This document shows, piece by piece, positions 37,967 to 55,346 of a DNA stretch of 64,000 bases. Below the pieces are notes generated by a model that made no database searches, was not told the origin of the DNA, and saw nothing but the letters and a program-made list of their open reading frames with translations. Position 1 is the stretch's first letter, and each line of letters begins with the position of its first letter. The stretch is from Gammaproteobacteria bacterium. Lineage in GTDB: Bacteria; Pseudomonadota; Gammaproteobacteria; 21-64-14. The stretch lies in NCBI GenBank assembly GCA_027013145.1, contig JALUXX010000011.1:192556-256555 (forward strand), given 5' to 3'. The position numbers and the translations under genes are program-made.

Positions 37967-39625
37967 ATGCGGCCGTCACTGGCGTTGCGCGTCGTGCACA
38001 TCAACCTCGTGCTGCTGCGCCACGGCCTCGAGGAGGTCGTGCTCGCCACGCACCTGTTCCGGCCGGTGCGCTTTCTCATGTACCTCTCGCCGGGCTACTG
38101 GCTGCGCGACCGCAACACCCCGCGCGGGGTACGCATCCGGCGCGCGCTCGAGGACCTCGGTCCGATCTTCGTCAAGTTCGGGCAGGCCTTGTCCACGCGC
38201 CGCGACCTGCTCCCCGCCGACGTCGCCGACGAGCTGGCGCGGCTGCAGGACCGCGTGGCGCCGTTTCCCGGCGGGGAGGCGCGCGCCATCATCCGCCGCG
38301 CCTACGGCGAGCCGCTGGAGCGCGTGTTCAAGCGCTTCGACGAGATCCCGCTGGCCTCGGCCTCGATCGCGCAGGTCCATACGGCGCGGCTCGAGGACGG
38401 CCGTGAGGTCGTCGTCAAGGTCCTGCGCCCGCGCATCGAACGGCGGATCCGGCGCGACGTCGCCCTCCTGCACTACCTCGCCGGGCTCGCCGAGCGCTAC
38501 TGGCGCGAGGGGCGGCGGCTGCACGTGCGCGACGTCGTGGCCGAGTTCGAGAAGACCCTCTACGACGAACTCGACCTGCTGCGCGAGGCCGCCAACGCCT
38601 CGCAGTTGCGGCGCAACTTCCAGGGCTCGGAGATGCTCTACGTGCCCGAGGTCGACTGGCCGCTGAGCCGGCGCACCGTGATGGTCATCGAGCGCATCCA
38701 CGGCATCCCGGTGAGCGACGTGGCCGCGCTGCGCGCCGCCGGCATCGACCTGCGCGGGCTCGCCGAGCGCGGCGTGGAGATCTTCTTCACCCAGGTCTTC
38801 CGCCACAACTTCTTCCACGCCGACATGCATCCGGGCAACATCTTCGTCTCCCCCGAGGGGCGCTACCTGGCCGTGGACTTCGGGATCATGGGCACCCTCA
38901 ACCCCGTCGATCAGCGCTACCTCGCGGAGAACTTCCTCGCCTTCTTCCGCCGCGACTATCGGCGCGTGGCGGAGCTGCACGTGGAATCGGGCTGGGTGCC
39001 GGCGCACACGCGCGTGGACGAATTCGAATCGGCCATCCGCACGGTGTGCGAGCCGATCTTCGAGCGCCCGCTCAAGGACATCTCCTTCGGCTACCTGCTG
39101 GTGCGCCTGTTCCAGACCGCGCGGCGCTTCAACATGGAGGTGCAGCCGCAGCTCGTGCTGCTGCAGAAGACCTTCCTCAACATCGAGGGACTGGGGCGGC
39201 TGCTGTATCCGGACCTCGACCTGTGGCAGACGGCCAAGCCCTTCCTGGAGCGCTGGATGAGCGAGCAGGTGGGGCTGCGCTCGTTCCTGCACACGATCCG
39301 CACCAACCTGCCGGCCTGGGGCGAGAAGCTCCCGCAGCTCCCGGAGCTGGTCCACGACGTCCTCGACCGCGCGCGCGAGGGGCGCCTGGAGGTGCGCTGG
39401 CGCTCGGAGGAACTCGAGCGGCTGCGCGAGGAGGTGCGCCACGCGAGCCGCCGCACCACGCGCGTGGTCGCCGGGGCCGCGCTCCTGGTGAGCGGGGCGC
39501 TGCTCACCGGGGCGCCGGTGGACCTCGCGCAGTGGATGGGCAGCACGCCGCTGATCGGCTGGGTCCTGAGCGGGCTCGGCGTGCTGCTGCTCCTCGCCGC
39601 CTGGCGCGGCGGGCGCCGGCGCTGA
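37967..39625 (+). CDS. ubiB: ubiquinone biosynthesis regulatory protein kinase UbiB
   Basis: Colinear with E. coli UbiB ([28 protein letters not shown]-terminal TM segments). Confidence 0.92.
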
Positions 39626-39639
39626 GGCCGGGTGCGGGC

Positions 39640-40374
39640 CTACGCCCGGCGGCGGCGCGCGGCGAGCCCGGTCAGCCCGAGGAGGCCGGAGGCGAACAGC
39701 ACCAGCGGCGCGGGCAGCGGCACCGGCGTGACCTCGAAGCGGCTGGTGAAGCTGGCGCTATCACCGGCACTGAGATCGAAGTGGAAGCGCATGCCGATGC
39801 TCGTCGACACACCGGTCGGCACGAGTGTGGGCCCGCCGCTGAGCGGACCGCCCGTCCCGCTGCAGCCGATCGAGCTGCCGCCGCAGGTCCCGCCGAAGGT
39901 GGCGAGCGAGAAGGCGTCGGCGCCGTCGATCTGTCCGTACCAAGCAAAGTTGCTGAGTGTCGCGGTCGTGTCGTTGTTGTCCTTCCACGTCCACGACAGT
40001 TTGCCGCTCTCGTAGCCCGGGCTGAAGCCGGGCGAAACCGGCATCGTCAACACCACGTCGAACGTCTGCGTGCCCGACGTCGTGTTCGTGAACATGAGGT
40101 TGCCGTCGATGTACGGGTCGGGCTTGGCGGTGAAATTCCAGCCGAAGTCCCAGGACATGCACGTGGGCGTCGTCGTCGACGAGCAGGAGCCCATGAACGT
40201 CGTGACGCCCTGGAGGTCGGTCAAACTCGACCCCATCTTGGAAAAATCGATCGTCGTCGAGTTGATCGTCGCCGTGACCGACGCCGGCGGAAGCGCGAGA
40301 GCGGACGCACCCGCCCACCCCGGCGCGAGCGCCGCCCCGAACACCAGAACCGACCATAGCTTGCGCAATCGCAT
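39640..40374 (-). CDS. VPLPA-CTERM (PEP-CTERM variant) sorting-domain secreted protein
   Basis: Signal peptide MRLRKLWSVLVFGAALAPGWAGASA. C-terminus VPLPAPLVLFASGLLGLTGLAARRRRA is motif + TM helix + Arg cluster. Thr/Ser/Gly-rich body. Confidence 0.8.
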   Translation of the reverse strand: MRLRKLWSVLVFGAALAPGWAGASALALPPASVTATINSTTIDFSKMGSSLTDLQGVTTFMGSCSSTTTPTCMSWDFGWNFTAKPDPYIDGNLMFTNTTSGTQTFDVVLTMPVSPGFSPGYESGKLSWTWKDNNDTTATLSNFAWYGQIDGADAFSLATFGGTCGGSSIGCSGTGGPLSGGPTLVPTGVSTSIGMRFHFDLSAGDSASFTSRFEVTPVPLPAPLVLFASGLLGLTGLAARRRRA

Positions 40375-40439
40375 CCCCCGCCCCCTCAGATCCCGTTCGC
40401 CCCAACCGGCGCACCCGACGCCGCCGGCTGAGGGTGGAA

Positions 40440-40459
40440 CCAAGCAAGTTCGATACCGG
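40440..40459 (-). promoter_or_regulatory. candidate sigma54 (-24/-12) promoter for the VPLPA-CTERM gene
   Basis: Minus strand reads cGGtatcgaacTTGCt, GG-N10-GC spacing, about 70 nt upstream of the ATG. Its core gaacttgcttggttcc nearly matches the mshI promoter. Confidence 0.45.
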
Positions 40460-40726
40460 CTCCGGATTCATGTTGTCATACAATTAGTTATAAGATCAGG
40501 TGGGTGCAGGCAGGGTATCTGTGTAAACAATTCCGACAGCCCGCGAGTTGCCTCAGGTTGCCCGGATTCACGCAACGATAGGAAATCACAATAGATATTC
40601 GGTCCGTCGCCGGATGGGGCCGGCGCTCTCCCGCGCTGCGCCCCTGGCGTGACTGTAGGTCCTTGAACTTACAGTTTTTAAACGCGGGGCCGCGTCTTCG
40701 GTTGTAAAGAATCCCGACACGGGCCG

Positions 40727-41716
40727 TCAGCGCACCGCCGGCGGGTGGAGCAGGATGACGGCGACGAGGACGGCGAGGATCGCGGCCCAGAGCGCGATCG
40801 ACAGGGCCAGGGATTCACGCGCGCGGCGCTTCTCGAGCCAGGTGCGCGGTTTCACGCCGCGTACCCAGAAGACGAGCGTGGCGGCGAGATTGACGCACAC
40901 GACGTTGACCGCGAGGAGCAGCGCGGCCCCGCCGGCGAGGCGCCAGTGGCCGCCGCCGGCGAACAGCCCGAGCGCGGCGGCCGGCGGGAGCAGGGCGACC
41001 GCGACCATGACCCCGACCAGCACCGTCGACAGGCCGGTGGTGAGGGAGAGCACGGCGGCAGCGCCGGAGGCGAGCGCGAGCACGATGCCGTCGAGGCCGA
41101 CGTCGGCGCGCGCCATTAGTTCCTGGCTGTGCAGATTGGCGGGCCAGATCCAGCCGATAAAGGCCGCGCAGGCGAAGGCGGTCGCCAGCCCCGCGAGGTT
41201 GGTGCGCACCGCGCCGGCGATGAGCGGCCGGTCGCCGAGCGCGGTCCCGAGCCCGAAGGCGAGGTTGGGACCCAGCAGCGGGGCGATCACCATCGCCCCG
41301 AGCACGGCGGCGAGGTTGTCCTCCATGAGTCCGACGGCCGCGACCACGGTGGAGAGCACCACGAGCAGCAGGTAGTTGGCGTCGAGGCGCGCGCCGCGCT
41401 CGACGCCGTTGTAGAGCTCCTCCCGCGTGGCCACCTCGCGCGCCGCGGCCGCGGCCTCGGGCGAGGACTCCGCCGGGCGCGGCAGGATCCCCTCGGCCGG
41501 CAGCAGCAGGATGCGCGCCTGCGGATCGCTCCCGAACACGCCCTGCAGGGCATCCAGCACCGGCTGCGCGTTGTCGGCGTCGACCAGCACACGCAGGGTC
41601 TGGCGCCCGTCCTCCCCCGGCGGCGCGGCGGGGAGGCTCGCGGCGCCGTGTTGTTCGGCGATCGCGGCGACGGTATCGGCGCTGCCCTGGGCGGCAGCGA
41701 TCTCGACGATCTTCAT
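40727..41716 (-). CDS. DUF389 (TIGR00341) family membrane protein
   Basis: N-terminal soluble domain followed by multiple TM helices. MKIVEIAAAQ start. Confidence 0.7.
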   Translation of the reverse strand: MKIVEIAAAQGSADTVAAIAEQHGAASLPAAPPGEDGRQTLRVLVDADNAQPVLDALQGVFGSDPQARILLLPAEGILPRPAESSPEAAAAAREVATREELYNGVERGARLDANYLLLVVLSTVVAAVGLMEDNLAAVLGAMVIAPLLGPNLAFGLGTALGDRPLIAGAVRTNLAGLATAFACAAFIGWIWPANLHSQELMARADVGLDGIVLALASGAAAVLSLTTGLSTVLVGVMVAVALLPPAAALGLFAGGGHWRLAGGAALLLAVNVVCVNLAATLVFWVRGVKPRTWLEKRRARESLALSIALWAAILAVLVAVILLHPPAVR

Positions 41717-41728
41717 GCGCGGGCGGCC

Positions 41729-42280
41729 TCAGGGGCGCTGCAGGGGGCCTTCCACCCGGGCGCGCGCCTCGGGCCCGGCGAGGTGTTCGATCAGCGCGAG
41801 CGCGAAGTCCATCGCGGTCCCGGGCCCGCGCGAGGTGATGAGCCGCCCGTCCACGACCACGGGGTCTTCGCGATAGTCGAGGCCGGGTATCGTCAGCCCG
41901 TCCAGGGCTCCGGGGAAGCTGGTCGCGCGGCGCCCGTCGAGCAGGCCGGCGGCGGCGAGCACGCGCGGGGCCGCGCAGATCGCGCCGATCGCGCGCCCGG
42001 CGCGCGCGGCACGCACGAGCAGCTCGCCGACGCGCGGGTCGGCCGCGAGGCGCTCGGCCCCGGGCCCGCCGCCCGGCAGCACGATCAGGTCGAAATCCTC
42101 CCCGGCCACCGCGTCGAGCGTGGTGTCCGGGACCAGGACCGTGCCGCGCGAGGCGGTCACGGGCCCGGGCGCGAGGCCGGCGCTCACGACCTCGATCCCG
42201 GCGCGGCGCAGGAGGTCGATCACCGTCACCGCTTCGATCTCTTCGCAGCCCTCCGCCAGGGGGACCAGGACGCGCGCCAT
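41729..42280 (-). CDS. DJ-1/PfpI family protein
   Basis: Class I glutamine amidotransferase-like fold with the AICAAP nucleophile-elbow Cys. Confidence 0.85.
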   Translation of the reverse strand: MARVLVPLAEGCEEIEAVTVIDLLRRAGIEVVSAGLAPGPVTASRGTVLVPDTTLDAVAGEDFDLIVLPGGGPGAERLAADPRVGELLVRAARAGRAIGAICAAPRVLAAAGLLDGRRATSFPGALDGLTIPGLDYREDPVVVDGRLITSRGPGTAMDFALALIEHLAGPEARARVEGPLQRP

Positions 42281-49788: not shown

Positions 49789-49804
49789 GGGCACGGAACT
49801 TGCT
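49789..49804 (+). promoter_or_regulatory. candidate sigma54 (-24/-12) promoter for the MSHA operon
   Basis: gGGCACggaacTTGCt: GG and GC elements with canonical 10-nt spacing, about 130 nt upstream of mshI. Shares gaacttgcttg(g)ttcc with the VPLPA-CTERM promoter. Confidence 0.5.
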
Positions 49805-49932
49805 TGTTCCGGCTGACGGATTTCACTGCAGGGACCCCGGCCGGCGGCCGGCAGGATGCCGCCGCGGGACCGGTTCGGGAGGGACGACCGCTGTTTTCAC
49901 TCCTTAAAAAACAACCACTTGTCTCTGGCCAG

Positions 49933-50817
49933 GTGGGCGTGGACCTGGGGCCCGACGGCGTCGCCGTGGCGTGCGTGGAGCGCCCGCGAACGGGTCGCCC
50001 GCGCCTGAGATTCGCCGACTGGCGGCCGGCGGAGGACGAAGAACAGGCGCTGGCAGCCCTCGCGGCGGTGGAAAAGACCCGATCCCTGCGCGGGGCCGCC
50101 GCCGTCGGCGTCATGGATCCGACGTCCTACAGCCTCCTGCTCGTCGAGGCCCCGGACGTGGAGCCCGCCGAGCTGCGCGCGGCGTTGCGCTGGCGCATCA
50201 AGGACTTGATCGACTTTCACATCGACGACGCCGTCATCGACGTCTTCGACCTGCCCGGGGACGCGCCGCGCCGGCACACACGCATGATGTACGTGGTCGC
50301 GGCGCGGGCCGCGGCCGTGCGCGCGCGCGTGGACGCCCTCGACGCCACGCACCTCGAACTGGGGGCGATCGACATCCCGGAGCTGGCGTTGCGCAACGTC
50401 ACCGCCCTGCTCCCCGAGGACGTCGGCGGGGTCGCCCTGCTGCATGTGTGCGGCGGGCACGGGCTGGTGGTGATCACCCACCAGTCGAGCCTGTATCTGG
50501 CGCGCACCATCGACATCGACGTCGCGCCCGGCGACGCCGGAGAGCGCGCGGCGGAGACCCTGACGCTCGAGATCCAACGCTCCCTCGATTACTACGAGAG
50601 CCACTTCGGGCAGCCGCCGGTGCAGGCCGTCGTGGTCTCCCGGGACACGCCGGGCGCGGCGATCGAGGAGCACCTGCGCGGGACGCTGGCCGTCGCGGTG
50701 CGCACTTTCGATCCCGCAACGGCCCTCGACTGCGACCAGGCCCCGGCGCCGGAGCTGGCGGCCCGCTGCCTGACGGCCATCGGGGCCGCGTTGCGCCAGG
50801 AGCGCACCGCGCTATGA
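49933..50817 (+). CDS. mshI: MSHA biogenesis protein MshI (PilM-like actin-fold)
   Basis: PilM-like sugar-kinase/actin fold, first gene of the msh cluster. GTG start uncertain (49933 or 49939). Confidence 0.7.
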   Translation: MGVDLGPDGVAVACVERPRTGRPRLRFADWRPAEDEEQALAALAAVEKTRSLRGAAAVGVMDPTSYSLLLVEAPDVEPAELRAALRWRIKDLIDFHIDDAVIDVFDLPGDAPRRHTRMMYVVAARAAAVRARVDALDATHLELGAIDIPELALRNVTALLPEDVGGVALLHVCGGHGLVVITHQSSLYLARTIDIDVAPGDAGERAAETLTLEIQRSLDYYESHFGQPPVQAVVVSRDTPGAAIEEHLRGTLAVAVRTFDPATALDCDQAPAPELAARCLTAIGAALRQERTAL

Positions 50818-54410: not shown

Positions 54411-55346
54411 ATGGCATGCGCCGTGTACCTGCAACACTTCGGACTGCGTGAGGCGCCCTTCTCGCTGACGCCGGACACGGACTTCTTCTTCGCCGACAGC
54501 GGCCACCGCGAGGCGCTCAACGTGCTGCTGGTGGCGCTGCGCGGCGGCGAGGGCTTCGTCCGCATCACCGGCGAGGTGGGGACCGGCAAGACCCTGCTGT
54601 GCCGGCTGCTGCTGCGGGCGCTGGACGGCGAGTTCGTCACCTGCTACCTGCCCAATCCGTTTCTCACTCCGAGCGCGCTGCGCATGGCCTTCGCCGAGGA
54701 GCTGGGCATCGAGTTCCGCCGCAACCTCGGCCAGCACGGCCTGTTGAAGCTCATCCACAAACGACTGATCGGCCTCGCGGCCGCCGGGCGGCGCGTCGTT
54801 CTGTGCCTGGACGAGGCGCAGTCCCTGCCCGACGAGAGCCTGGAGTCCCTGCGCCTGCTCACCAATCTCGAGACCGAGAAGTCCAAGCTCCTGCAGGTGG
54901 TGCTGTTCGGTCAGCCCGAACTCGAACGGCGCCTGGCGCGCCACGGCCTGCGCCAGCTGCGCCAGCGCATCACCTTCGCCTACCGGCTGCACCCGCTCGG
55001 CCGGCGCGCCGCGGCCGCCTACCTGCGCCACCGCCTCGCGGTGGCCGGGCGCACCGACGGCGGGCCGCTCACCCCGCGCGCGCTGCGCGCGCTCACCCGG
55101 GCGGGCGGCGGGATCCCGCGCCGGCTCAACATCCTCGCGCACAAGGCCCTGCTCGCCGCCTACGGCGGCGGCGCGGCGCGTGTGGGAGCGCGACACGTGC
55201 GCCGCGCCGTGCGCGACGGGCGCGAGCGCCTGTCCGTCCGCGGCTGGCCGGCGCGCCAGCTCGGCCAGGCCGTCCCGGTGGCGGCGGCCGCCCTCGCCCT
55301 GGGCCTGGGGTTTGCGGTGGCGTTGTGGACAGGGCTCGTGCGATGA
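54411..55346 (+). CDS. mshM: MSHA biogenesis protein MshM (ExeA-like AAA ATPase)
   Basis: YLQHFGLREAPFSLTPD..., Walker A GEVGTGKT. Confidence 0.85.
   Translation: MACAVYLQHFGLREAPFSLTPDTDFFFADSGHREALNVLLVALRGGEGFVRITGEVGTGKTLLCRLLLRALDGEFVTCYLPNPFLTPSALRMAFAEELGIEFRRNLGQHGLLKLIHKRLIGLAAAGRRVVLCLDEAQSLPDESLESLRLLTNLETEKSKLLQVVLFGQPELERRLARHGLRQLRQRITFAYRLHPLGRRAAAAYLRHRLAVAGRTDGGPLTPRALRALTRAGGGIPRRLNILAHKALLAAYGGGAARVGARHVRRAVRDGRERLSVRGWPARQLGQAVPVAAAALALGLGFAVALWTGLVR

What the first reader, a model, noticed from the sequence alone, without database searches (positions are those of the whole stretch)
40436..40460. VPLPA-CTERM gene has a sigma54-like promoter sharing a 15-16 nt core with the msh promoter
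On the minus strand, about 70 nt upstream of the VPLPA-CTERM protein ATG, the sequence reads cGGTATcgaacTTGCttggttcc. It has GG/GC spacing right for sigma54, though the -24 box is degenerate. Its core gaacttgcttggttcc is almost identical to gaacttgcttgttcc in the msh promoter at 49794..49808. PEP-CTERM protein genes are typically sigma54/bEBP (PrsK/PrsR) dependent. A common activator driving both an exosortase substrate and the MSHA pilus would be a new regulatory link.
Basis: partly seen in the sequence, partly recalled or inferred. Interest (0 to 1): 0.58.

Follow-up and report, generated by a model that had tools for sequence, protein, structure and literature searches.

The report
Known PEP-CTERM sigma-54 promoter; msh link unsupported
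The gene for a surface-sorted (VPLPA/PEP-CTERM) protein sits behind the already-described "PEP-CTERM box plus sigma-54 promoter" control region, and its short resemblance to the neighbouring pilus-operon promoter mostly reflects both being sigma-54 promoters rather than a shared activator.

Summary
The sequences are as described, with one correction: the msh core lies at 49796-49810, not 49794-49808. The VPLPA-CTERM gene (39640-40374, minus strand) is preceded by CGGTATCGAACTTGCT (40458-40443), which has the correct GG-N10-GC spacing.

This site is the "motif 2" of the proteobacterial PEP-CTERM regulatory region published by Haft et al. 2006:
- Two 17-nt TTTACA-ended boxes lie upstream, at 40538-40522 and 40719-40703.
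- The proximal box lies 62 nt upstream of the promoter (published 62.8±10.6).
- The promoter ends 68 nt before the ATG (published 71).
- Boxes and promoter are conserved in a 94%-identical ortholog.
- The same architecture recurs upstream of three distant homologs.

The msh site (GGGCACGGAACTTGCT, 49789-49804) is a strong sigma-54 promoter. It is conserved in four relatives within otherwise unalignable intergenic DNA.

The shared-activator idea is not supported:
- msh has no PEP-CTERM box in this window or in 80 related species.
- All four relatives' msh promoters read GAAA/AAAA, not GAAC.
- The ortholog's VPLPA promoter reads GATC...GATTCC.
- A promoter from an unrelated MAG is almost as similar to the VPLPA promoter as msh is (17 versus 18 of 23).

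Verdict: an ordinary new member of a known regulatory class, of low interest.

The parts
40703..40719 (-). Distal PEP-CTERM box (motif 1, predicted PrsR enhancer site): TGTCGGGATTCTTTACA
   Evidence: 2 mismatches to the proximal copy. Chance expectation is 0.01 per window. It is 17/17 identical in ortholog L002. Haft 2006 notes that motif 1 is sometimes repeated.
40522..40538 (-). Proximal PEP-CTERM box (motif 1): TGTCGGAATTGTTTACA, a 17-nt motif ending in TTTACA
   Evidence: It is identical in L002. It lies 62 nt upstream of the sigma-54 element, against a published spacer of 62.8+-10.6. Homologous boxes sit at a 63-, 63- and 73-nt spacer in L088, L003 and L086.
40443..40458 (-). Sigma-54 promoter (motif 2) of the VPLPA-CTERM gene: CGGTATCGAACTTGCT, with GG at 40457-40456 and GC at 40445-40444
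   Evidence: It is 15/16 conserved in L002, while the flanking spacer is only 62% conserved. L088 also has CGGTAT at -24. The 16-mer ends 68 nt before the ATG, against a published mean of 71.
40436..40451 (-). The 16-nt core GAACTTGCTTGGTTCC shared with the msh promoter
   Evidence: L002 reads GATCTTGCTTGATTCC, so two of the shared non-consensus positions differ there.
40375..40432 (-). Predicted 5' UTR of the VPLPA-CTERM mRNA, with the SD GAGGGGG
   Evidence: It is 93% identical to L002. No Rfam match. The fold is no better than shuffled sequence. The transcription start is inferred, not mapped.
39640..40374 (-). VPLPA-CTERM protein gene: 244 aa, with a signal peptide, a beta-sandwich body and a VPLPAP + TM + RRRRA tail
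   Evidence: In one search the distant homologs carry a canonical PEP-CTERM (PF07589) at the same position.
49789..49804 (+). Sigma-54 promoter of the msh operon: GGGCACGGAACTTGCT, with GG at 49790-49791 and GC at 49802-49803
   Evidence: the best match in the window, with 1 mismatch. GGCAC..AA.TTGCTTG is invariant in 4 relatives (64-76% MshI identity) within otherwise unalignable intergenic DNA.
49796..49810 (+). The 15-nt core GAACTTGCTTGTTCC shared with the VPLPA promoter
   Evidence: The relatives read GAAATTGCTTGTTCC (L005, L209), AAAATTGCTTGTTCC (L210) and GAAATTGCTTGAAATCGTTCC (L211).
49891..50817 (+). mshI (PilM-like), first gene of the msh operon, probably with a CTG start after the SD GGGAGGG
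   Evidence: MshL passes its equivalog cut-off. MshE carries the c-di-GMP-binding N-terminus.

Best explanation
There are two separate sigma-54 promoters.

(1) The VPLPA-CTERM gene is a single-gene unit controlled by the known proteobacterial PEP-CTERM regulatory region. Two 17-nt PEP-CTERM boxes (TGTCGGRATTSTTTACA) are the predicted binding sites of the PrsR enhancer-binding protein. They sit upstream of a weak-consensus sigma-54 promoter (CGGTAT-N5-TTGCT). Bound, phosphorylated PrsR would loop over the ~62-nt spacer and drive open-complex formation. Transcription would start about 12 nt after the GC and give a ~58-nt leader.

(2) The msh pilus operon has its own near-consensus sigma-54 promoter (GGGCACG-N4-TTGCT), served by an unidentified activator.

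The 15-16-nt resemblance between the two comes mainly from the shared sigma-54 grammar (GG, A, G, TTGCTT) plus a few coincident lineage-specific letters. It is not evidence of a common activator.

Shown here: the sequence architecture, the conservation, and the absence of boxes at msh. Inferred: PrsR binding, sigma-54 dependence and the transcription start site.
For: The architecture matches Haft et al. 2006:
- A 17-nt motif ending in TTTACA, repeated (chance expectation 0.01).
- A spacer of 62 nt against the published 62.8+-10.6.
- A GG/GC motif.
- 68 nt to the ATG against the published 71.
- A 350-nt upstream intergenic region and a single-gene unit.

The footprint against the 94%-identical ortholog L002 shows boxes 17/17 and 17/17, promoter 15/16 and leader 93%. 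The spacer and other segments are only 59-72% identical.

The same box-spacer-promoter composite (spacers 63, 63, 63, 73) precedes 5 of 8 family members, including three distant homologs. The background rate is 9 hits in 4.1 Mb.

RpoN dependence of a PEP-CTERM gene is experimentally shown in Aquincola (PMC9850573).

The msh promoter is conserved in L005, L209, L210 and L211, while the upstream DNA is unalignable.

No box within 3 mismatches occurs elsewhere in the window. No composite lies upstream of mshI in 80 species.

The shared core is not conserved: msh reads GAAA/AAAA in all four relatives and V reads GATC..GATTCC in L002. V against unrelated L077 scores 17/23, against 18/23 for V-M.
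Against: - The V-M pair is still the most similar non-orthologous pair tested (z about 3). TTGCTTG plus TTCC survives in all V and M copies of this lineage.
- The -24 element of V (CGGTAT) is weak.
- No PrsK/PrsR, exosortase or any sigma-54 activator (GAFTGA) is encoded in the 64-kb window. The source genome could not be searched.
- The published motif-1 logo could not be viewed, so the match rests on the text description.
- No enhancer site was found for the msh promoter.
Confidence: 0.78

Rival explanations
1. A single enhancer-binding protein (PrsR or another bEBP) activates both the VPLPA-CTERM gene and the msh operon. This would co-regulate an exosortase substrate and a pilus.
For: Both are sigma-54 promoters 9.3 kb apart. 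They share an 11-nt exact run plus TTCC. Both products plausibly act in surface attachment. No msh-specific activator or enhancer was identified.
Against: - bEBP specificity comes from upstream sites. The two conserved PEP-CTERM boxes of V have no counterpart within 3 mismatches anywhere else in the window.
- No shared upstream k-mer beyond GC-rich noise was found.
- None of 80 related mshI loci carries the composite.
- Relatives L005 and L211 keep the msh promoter although they lack the VPLPA gene.
- The shared non-consensus letters are not conserved.
Confidence: 0.07
2. The extended element CTTGCTTG(G)TTCC, covering -12 to about -5, is functional in this lineage. It could be an organism-specific extended sigma-54 preference, or the site of a shared modulator or repressor overlapping both promoters.
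For: TTGCTTG is invariant in all V and M copies of the lineage. TTCC follows in window, L002, L005, L209 and L210. V-M is the top non-orthologous pair.
Against: - In L211 the TTCC is displaced by 6 nt.
- The GGAAC/GTTCC palindrome is imperfect or absent in relatives and in L002.
- V-family promoters in other organisms share nothing downstream of -12.
- Only two sites are available, and the genome-wide frequency is unknown.
Confidence: 0.12
3. The VPLPA site is a chance GG-N10-GC match, and the gene is transcribed from another (sigma-70) promoter.
For: The site has three mismatches to TGGCAC-N5-TTGCW, like about 65 other sites in the window. Homologs L004, L085 and L087 have no recognisable sigma-54 site.
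Against: - No sigma-70-like promoter lies in the region.
- The site is a conserved island in the ortholog.
- It sits at the published distance from conserved, repeated PEP-CTERM boxes.
- The same composite occurs in three distant homologs.
Confidence: 0.03

Closest known systems
Proteobacterial PEP-CTERM cis-regulatory region (motif 1 / 'PEP-CTERM box' + sigma-54 motif 2; PrsK/PrsR/PrsT system) of Haft et al. 2006, BMC Biol 4:29
   Same: A 17-nt box ending in TTTACA, repeated. A ~62-nt spacer. A GG/GC sigma-54 element. About 70 nt to the start codon. A large upstream intergenic region. A single-gene unit encoding an exosortase-type sorting-signal protein.
   Different: The sorting tag is the VPLPA variant and is sub-threshold for TIGR03370. 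The -24 element is CGGTAT rather than TGGCAC. Presence of PrsK/PrsR/exosortase in this genome is unverified.
RpoN1-dependent pepA of Aquincola tertiaricarbonis (PMC9850573)
   Same: A PEP-CTERM protein gene with a -24/-12 promoter and a predicted upstream enhancer. There, RpoN dependence and the transcription start site were shown experimentally.
   Different: It is a different protein family (floc PepA) in a betaproteobacterium, with a consensus TGGCAC/CTGCTT promoter. Nothing is experimentally tested here.
Sigma-54/PilR-dependent type IV pilin promoters (e.g. Pseudomonas aeruginosa pilA; from general knowledge)
   Same: The msh operon here has a near-consensus, phylogenetically conserved -24/-12 promoter. 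This implies bEBP-dependent pilus expression.
   Different: The promoter precedes the assembly operon (mshI...), not the pilin gene. No PilR-like activator or enhancer was found in the window. No report of sigma-54-dependent msh operons turned up in the literature search.
Klebsiella pneumoniae nifH-type weak sigma-54 promoters (CTGGTATG-N..-TGCA; from general knowledge)
   Same: A GGTAT -24 element. Such promoters bind sigma-54 holoenzyme weakly and depend strongly on a properly placed activator.
   Different: The regulon and activator are unrelated. This is a resemblance recalled from memory, not tested here.

Membership tests
PEP-CTERM cis-regulatory region (Haft 2006) | 17-nt motif 1 with TTTACA at its 3' end, sometimes repeated | tested here: met
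   TGTCGGAATTGTTTACA (40538-40522) and TGTCGGGATTCTTTACA (40719-40703). Chance expectation is 0.01.
PEP-CTERM cis-regulatory region (Haft 2006) | Spacer of 62.8+-10.6 nt to a 17-nt motif 2 with -24 GG / -12 GC | tested here: met
   The spacer is 62 nt in the window. It is 63, 63, 63 and 73 nt in L002, L003, L088 and L086.
PEP-CTERM cis-regulatory region (Haft 2006) | Motif 2 about 71 nt (SD 38.5) from the start codon of a PEP-CTERM gene with a >200-nt upstream intergenic region | tested here: met
   68 nt to ATG 40374. The intergenic region is 350 nt. The gene converges on ubiB, so it is a single-gene unit.
PEP-CTERM cis-regulatory region (Haft 2006) | Match to the published sequence logos of motifs 1 and 2 | not testable with these tools
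   The figures and supplements are not held. Only the text description could be compared.
PEP-CTERM cis-regulatory region (Haft 2006) | Genome encodes PrsK, PrsR (and PrsT) and an exosortase | not testable with these tools
   No GAFTGA/bEBP occurs in the 64-kb window. The source genome is absent from genome contigs.
Sigma-54-dependent promoter | GG-N10-GC with similarity to TGGCAC-N5-TTGCW | tested here: met
   msh has 1 mismatch. V has 3 mismatches with correct spacing and a perfect TTGCT. For V the consensus alone would be inconclusive.
Sigma-54-dependent promoter | Conservation of the -24/-12 elements in orthologous regions | tested here: met
   V is 15/16 identical against L002. For msh, GGCAC..AA.TTGCTTG is invariant in 5 genomes.
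Sigma-54-dependent promoter | rpoN- and bEBP-dependent transcription, with the start about 12 nt after GC | not testable with these tools
   This requires experiments or transcriptome data.
VPLPA-CTERM sorting domain (TIGR03370) | Score at or above the curated cut-off of 25.35 bits | tested here: not met
   The score is 14.3 bits for the whole protein and 18.9 bits for the isolated tail, aligned over model positions 1-25/25. Homologs carry VPLP[AG] or a canonical PEP tag (PF07589) at the same position. It therefore works like an exosortase tag but is sub-threshold for the model.
MSHA-type pilus operon | MshL secretin equivalog and MshE ATPase with a c-di-GMP-binding N-terminus | tested here: met
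   TIGR02519 scores 256.5 bits against a cut-off of 250.2. NF053729 scores 74.8 bits against a cut-off of 38.
Common-activator regulon (VPLPA gene + msh) | A shared upstream enhancer (UAS) motif at both promoters | tested here: not met
   No PEP-CTERM box within 3 mismatches lies near msh. No shared upstream k-mers beyond GC-rich noise. No composite lies upstream of mshI in 80 species.

The most novel reading that the evidence does not exclude
In this gammaproteobacterial lineage the two promoters carry a functional extended element (CTTGCTTG[G]TTCC, -13 to about -5). A common factor acting at the core promoter reads it, rather than a UAS-bound activator. The factor could be a lineage-specific sigma-54 preference or a shared modulator. 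It would couple expression of an exosortase-sorted, CBM-like surface protein to MSHA pilus assembly during attachment.
Probability: 0.08. Interest if true: 0.5.

Novelty: new member of a known kind. Interest (0 to 1): 0.2.

Why it matters
The finding documents one more example of the PrsR/sigma-54 "PEP-CTERM box" control region described in 2006. Here it sits upstream of a VPLPA-tagged beta-sandwich protein family in an uncultured, 72% GC gammaproteobacterium. The box-spacer-promoter architecture is conserved across distant members of that family. It also adds comparative evidence that msh pilus operons in this clade use a sigma-54 promoter, which I did not find reported. It removes a tempting but unsupported inference that an exosortase substrate and the MSHA pilus share an activator. 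If that link were real it would be of moderate interest for biofilm regulation. On present evidence it is not.

Tried and rejected
1. Genome-wide motif count. The source genome is not among the GTDB representatives; the best relative has 71% MshI identity. All were from unrelated organisms (GC 0.21-0.67), and only 5 of 120 had GG at -24, so they are chance hits and uninformative.

2. A shared enhancer between the two upstream regions. Only GC-rich 8-10-mers turned up, at E >= 0.12.

3. Inverted repeats as a candidate msh enhancer. Nothing conserved was found.

4. The GGAAC-N6-GTTCC palindrome at msh as a transcription-factor site. It is imperfect in L005, L209 and L210, and absent in L211 and in V of L002.

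5. Riboswitches or known RNAs in either leader. There was no Rfam hit even at E <= 1, and the folds are no better than shuffled sequence.

6. A sigma-70 promoter for the VPLPA gene. None was found.

7. A degenerate TTACA 8 nt upstream of the msh -24 element as a PEP-CTERM box. It matches only 7/17, sits at the wrong distance, and is not conserved in relatives.

8. The literature for the motif-1 consensus or for sigma-54-dependent msh. No text-accessible consensus and no such report were found.

Full report
OBSERVATION. The window is 72% GC. On the minus strand, 40458..40436 reads CGGTATCGAACTTGCTTGGTTCC. GG (40457-40456) and GC (40445-40444) are separated by 10 nt. The downstream ORF (39640-40374) starts at ATG 40374, behind the SD GAGGGGG, 68 nt after the 16-mer. 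It encodes a 244-aa protein with a signal peptide and the tail VPLPAPLVLFASGLLGLTGLAARRRRA.

It lies within GGGCACGGAACTTGCT (49789-49804). That site is the best TGGCAC-N5-TTGCW match in the window, with 1 mismatch. The VPLPA site has 3 mismatches, as do about 65 other places in the window.

The msh assignment holds. MshL passes its equivalog cut-off, and MshE carries the c-di-GMP-binding N-terminus. mshI (PilM-like) begins about 86 nt after the promoter, probably at CTG 49891 behind GGGAGGG.

IS THE SIMILARITY MORE THAN CHANCE? Against random sequence, yes. The 15-mer at <=2 mismatches is expected 0.03 times per window and occurs twice. The exact 11-mer gives BLAST E = 0.03 between the two ~400-nt upstream regions.

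The proper null, however, is 'two sigma-54 promoters'. I collected 19 candidate sigma-54 promoters from mshI and VPLPA-homolog upstream regions, giving 163 non-orthologous pairs. Identity over 23 nt with one gap allowed averages 12.4+-1.9. V-M scores 18, the top value. V against the promoter of an unrelated MAG (L077, TGGTATAAAGCTTGCTTCTTTC) scores 17. So the resemblance sits in the upper tail of what sigma-54 promoters with a TTGCTT -12 element show anyway.

WHAT THE VPLPA SITE IS. Haft et al. 2006 (PMC1569441) described the control region upstream of most proteobacterial PEP-CTERM genes:
- a 17-nt motif 1 whose 3' end is TTTACA, sometimes repeated, predicted to bind the response regulator PrsR;
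- a spacer of 62.8+-10.6 nt;
- a 17-nt motif 2 with the sigma-54 -24 GG / -12 GC;
- usually a single-gene operon with more than 200 nt of upstream non-coding DNA.

The window reproduces this. TGTCGGAATTGTTTACA lies at 40538-40522, 62 nt upstream of the 16-mer. A second copy, TGTCGGGATTCTTTACA, lies at 40719-40703 (expected 0.01 per window). No other copy within 3 mismatches occurs in the window. The intergenic region is 350 nt, and the gene converges on ubiB.

A 94%-identical ortholog on a 3-kb contig (L002) gives a clean footprint:

| Segment | Identity to L002 |
|---|---|
| Distal box | 17/17 |
| Proximal box | 17/17 |
| Sigma-54 16-mer | 15/16 |
| Leader | 93% |
| Box-promoter spacer | 62% |
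| Other segments | 59-72% |

Three distant homologs (35-48% identity, low-GC organisms) have the same arrangement:

| Locus | Box | Spacer (nt) | Promoter |
|---|---|---|---|
| L088 | ATTCGGCAAACCTTACA | 63 | CGGTATGATCTCTGCA |
| L003 | CGTCGAGATCTCTAACA | 63 | TGGAAAGAATCTTGCA |
| L086 | TGTCGATTTAAATTACA | 73 | TGGAACGATTTATGCT |

A composite pattern capturing this occurs upstream of 5 of 8 family members, against 9 times in 4.1 Mb of background, or 0.0009 per 400 nt. The pattern was defined after seeing the data, so the exact odds are inflated, but the signal is large. Three homologs (L004, L085, L087) lack it.

RpoN dependence of a PEP-CTERM gene has been shown experimentally in Aquincola (PMC9850573). 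I therefore accept the sigma-54 promoter call and classify the region as a new member of a known regulatory class.

The protein is an exosortase-type substrate by homology. Its closest relatives carry VPLP[AG], and more distant ones carry a canonical PEP-CTERM (PF07589) at the same alignment position. The tail itself is below the TIGR03370 cut-off.

WHAT THE MSH SITE IS. Four relatives were recovered, with 64-76% MshI identity (L005, L209, L210, L211). In all of them the intergenic DNA between pyrD and mshI varies in length. It carries REP-like insertions in L005 and L210 and is unalignable. One island is conserved:

| Locus | msh promoter |
|---|---|
| L005, L209 | GGGCACGGAAATTGCTTGTTCC |
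| L210 | AGGCACGAAAATTGCTTGTTCC |
| L211 | CGGCACAGAAATTGCTTGAAATCGTTCC |

This is strong comparative evidence for a sigma-54 promoter. More widely, 14 of 80 mshI loci from related Gammaproteobacteria have a <=2-mismatch site within 300 nt upstream. About 3.5 are expected from the background rate. No activator gene (GAFTGA or bEBP Walker A) is present in the window, and I found no conserved enhancer.

DOES THE SHARED CORE IMPLY A SHARED ACTIVATOR? No, for four reasons.
1. By established knowledge of bEBP-dependent transcription, the -24/-12 core is contacted by sigma-54. Activator specificity comes from upstream sites. The VPLPA gene's boxes are absent at msh and absent upstream of mshI in all 80 related loci.
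2. The letters that extend the identity beyond the sigma-54 grammar are not conserved. All four relatives read GAAA or AAAA where the window's msh promoter has GAAC. L002's VPLPA promoter reads GATC...TTGATTCC where the window has GAAC...TTGGTTCC. Between relatives the common run would shrink to TTGCTTG.
3. The VPLPA gene with its regulatory region is a lineage-specific insertion. L211 has ubiB directly followed by DUF389, and L005 lacks both DUF389 and the VPLPA gene. Both keep the msh promoter.
4. Downstream of -12, V-family promoters in other organisms share nothing.

What remains unexplained is that TTGCTTG followed by TTCC is kept in all lineage copies of both promoters, except for a 6-nt displacement in L211. 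I give about 12% to a functional lineage-specific extended element and about 7% to a truly common activator.

LIMITS. The source genome could not be searched. It is absent from the species-representative collection, and the metagenome scan was truncated by chance hits. Presence of PrsK/PrsR/exosortase and the genome-wide frequency of the core are therefore untested. All transcription claims are inferred.

VERDICT. The sigma-54 interpretation is supported but already known as a class. The proposed new regulatory link is not supported. Interest is low.

Noticed in passing
window 39613-41732; L005:1312-1390; L211:71-152: The VPLPA gene plus its 350-nt regulatory region is a lineage-specific insertion. 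Relative L211 has ubiB followed directly by DUF389 with no VPLPA gene, and L005 lacks both DUF389 and the VPLPA gene, with 78 nt between ubiB and DJ-1. Only the window and L002 carry it.
   Followed up: partly
L014, L023, L025, L027 (~37 nt before mshI); L017, L018, L034, L039, L047, L075, L077, L078 (~170-220 nt before mshI): 14 of 80 mshI loci from related Gammaproteobacteria have a <=2-mismatch sigma-54 site upstream, where about 3.5 are expected. They fall into two positional classes. I found no published report of sigma-54-dependent msh operons.
   Followed up: partly
window 49891-49893; alignment A5: mshI appears to start at a CTG codon behind a conserved GGGAGGG. The position is conserved as CTG in L005, L210 and L211 and as GTG in L209. 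Gene callers start the protein 16 codons later.
   Followed up: no
L005:9660-9830; L210:60-260: REP-like palindromic elements (GGCCCGGG..GCCCGGCCGACGTC, CGGCGGGGCGAGCCCCGCCCTAC) are inserted between pyrD and the msh promoter in two relatives but not in the window. Any enhancer located in pyrD would be displaced by about 200 nt.
   Followed up: no
window 49829-49840 and relatives (alignment A5, columns ~74-85): A conserved GCAGGGA(C/T)CCC block lies about 25-35 nt downstream of the msh -12 element in all five genomes. Its function is unknown. It could be a leader RNA element or a downstream regulator site.
   Followed up: no
window 40575-40610 (minus strand): A conserved block, GACCGAATATCTATTGTGATTTC, lies between the two PEP-CTERM boxes. 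It is 83% identical to L002, against 59-72% for the flanks. It is unexplained and could be a further protein-binding site.
   Followed up: no
window 39640-40374 (protein); alignment A4; model mae2b0f576871: The VPLPA protein family is rare, with 24 clusters among 5.8 billion proteins. Its sorting tag switches between VPLP[AG] and canonical PEP within one family. It is predicted as a beta-sandwich (pLDDT 78). It has weak fold similarity to Bdellovibrio Bd1399 and to carbohydrate-binding modules (TM about 0.4-0.5).
   Followed up: partly
window 54411-55346: The MshM-like ATPase of the msh operon hits TIGR03015 (XrtA/PEP-CTERM system-associated ATPase) at 211 bits, below the 324.5 cut-off. This is family-level homology of ExeA/MshM-type ATPases, not evidence of a PEP-CTERM link.
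   Followed up: no
window 40714-40730 (minus strand): The terminator-like hairpin called after the DUF389 stop codon overlaps the distal PEP-CTERM box. It is probably a false positive of the consensus scan.
   Followed up: no
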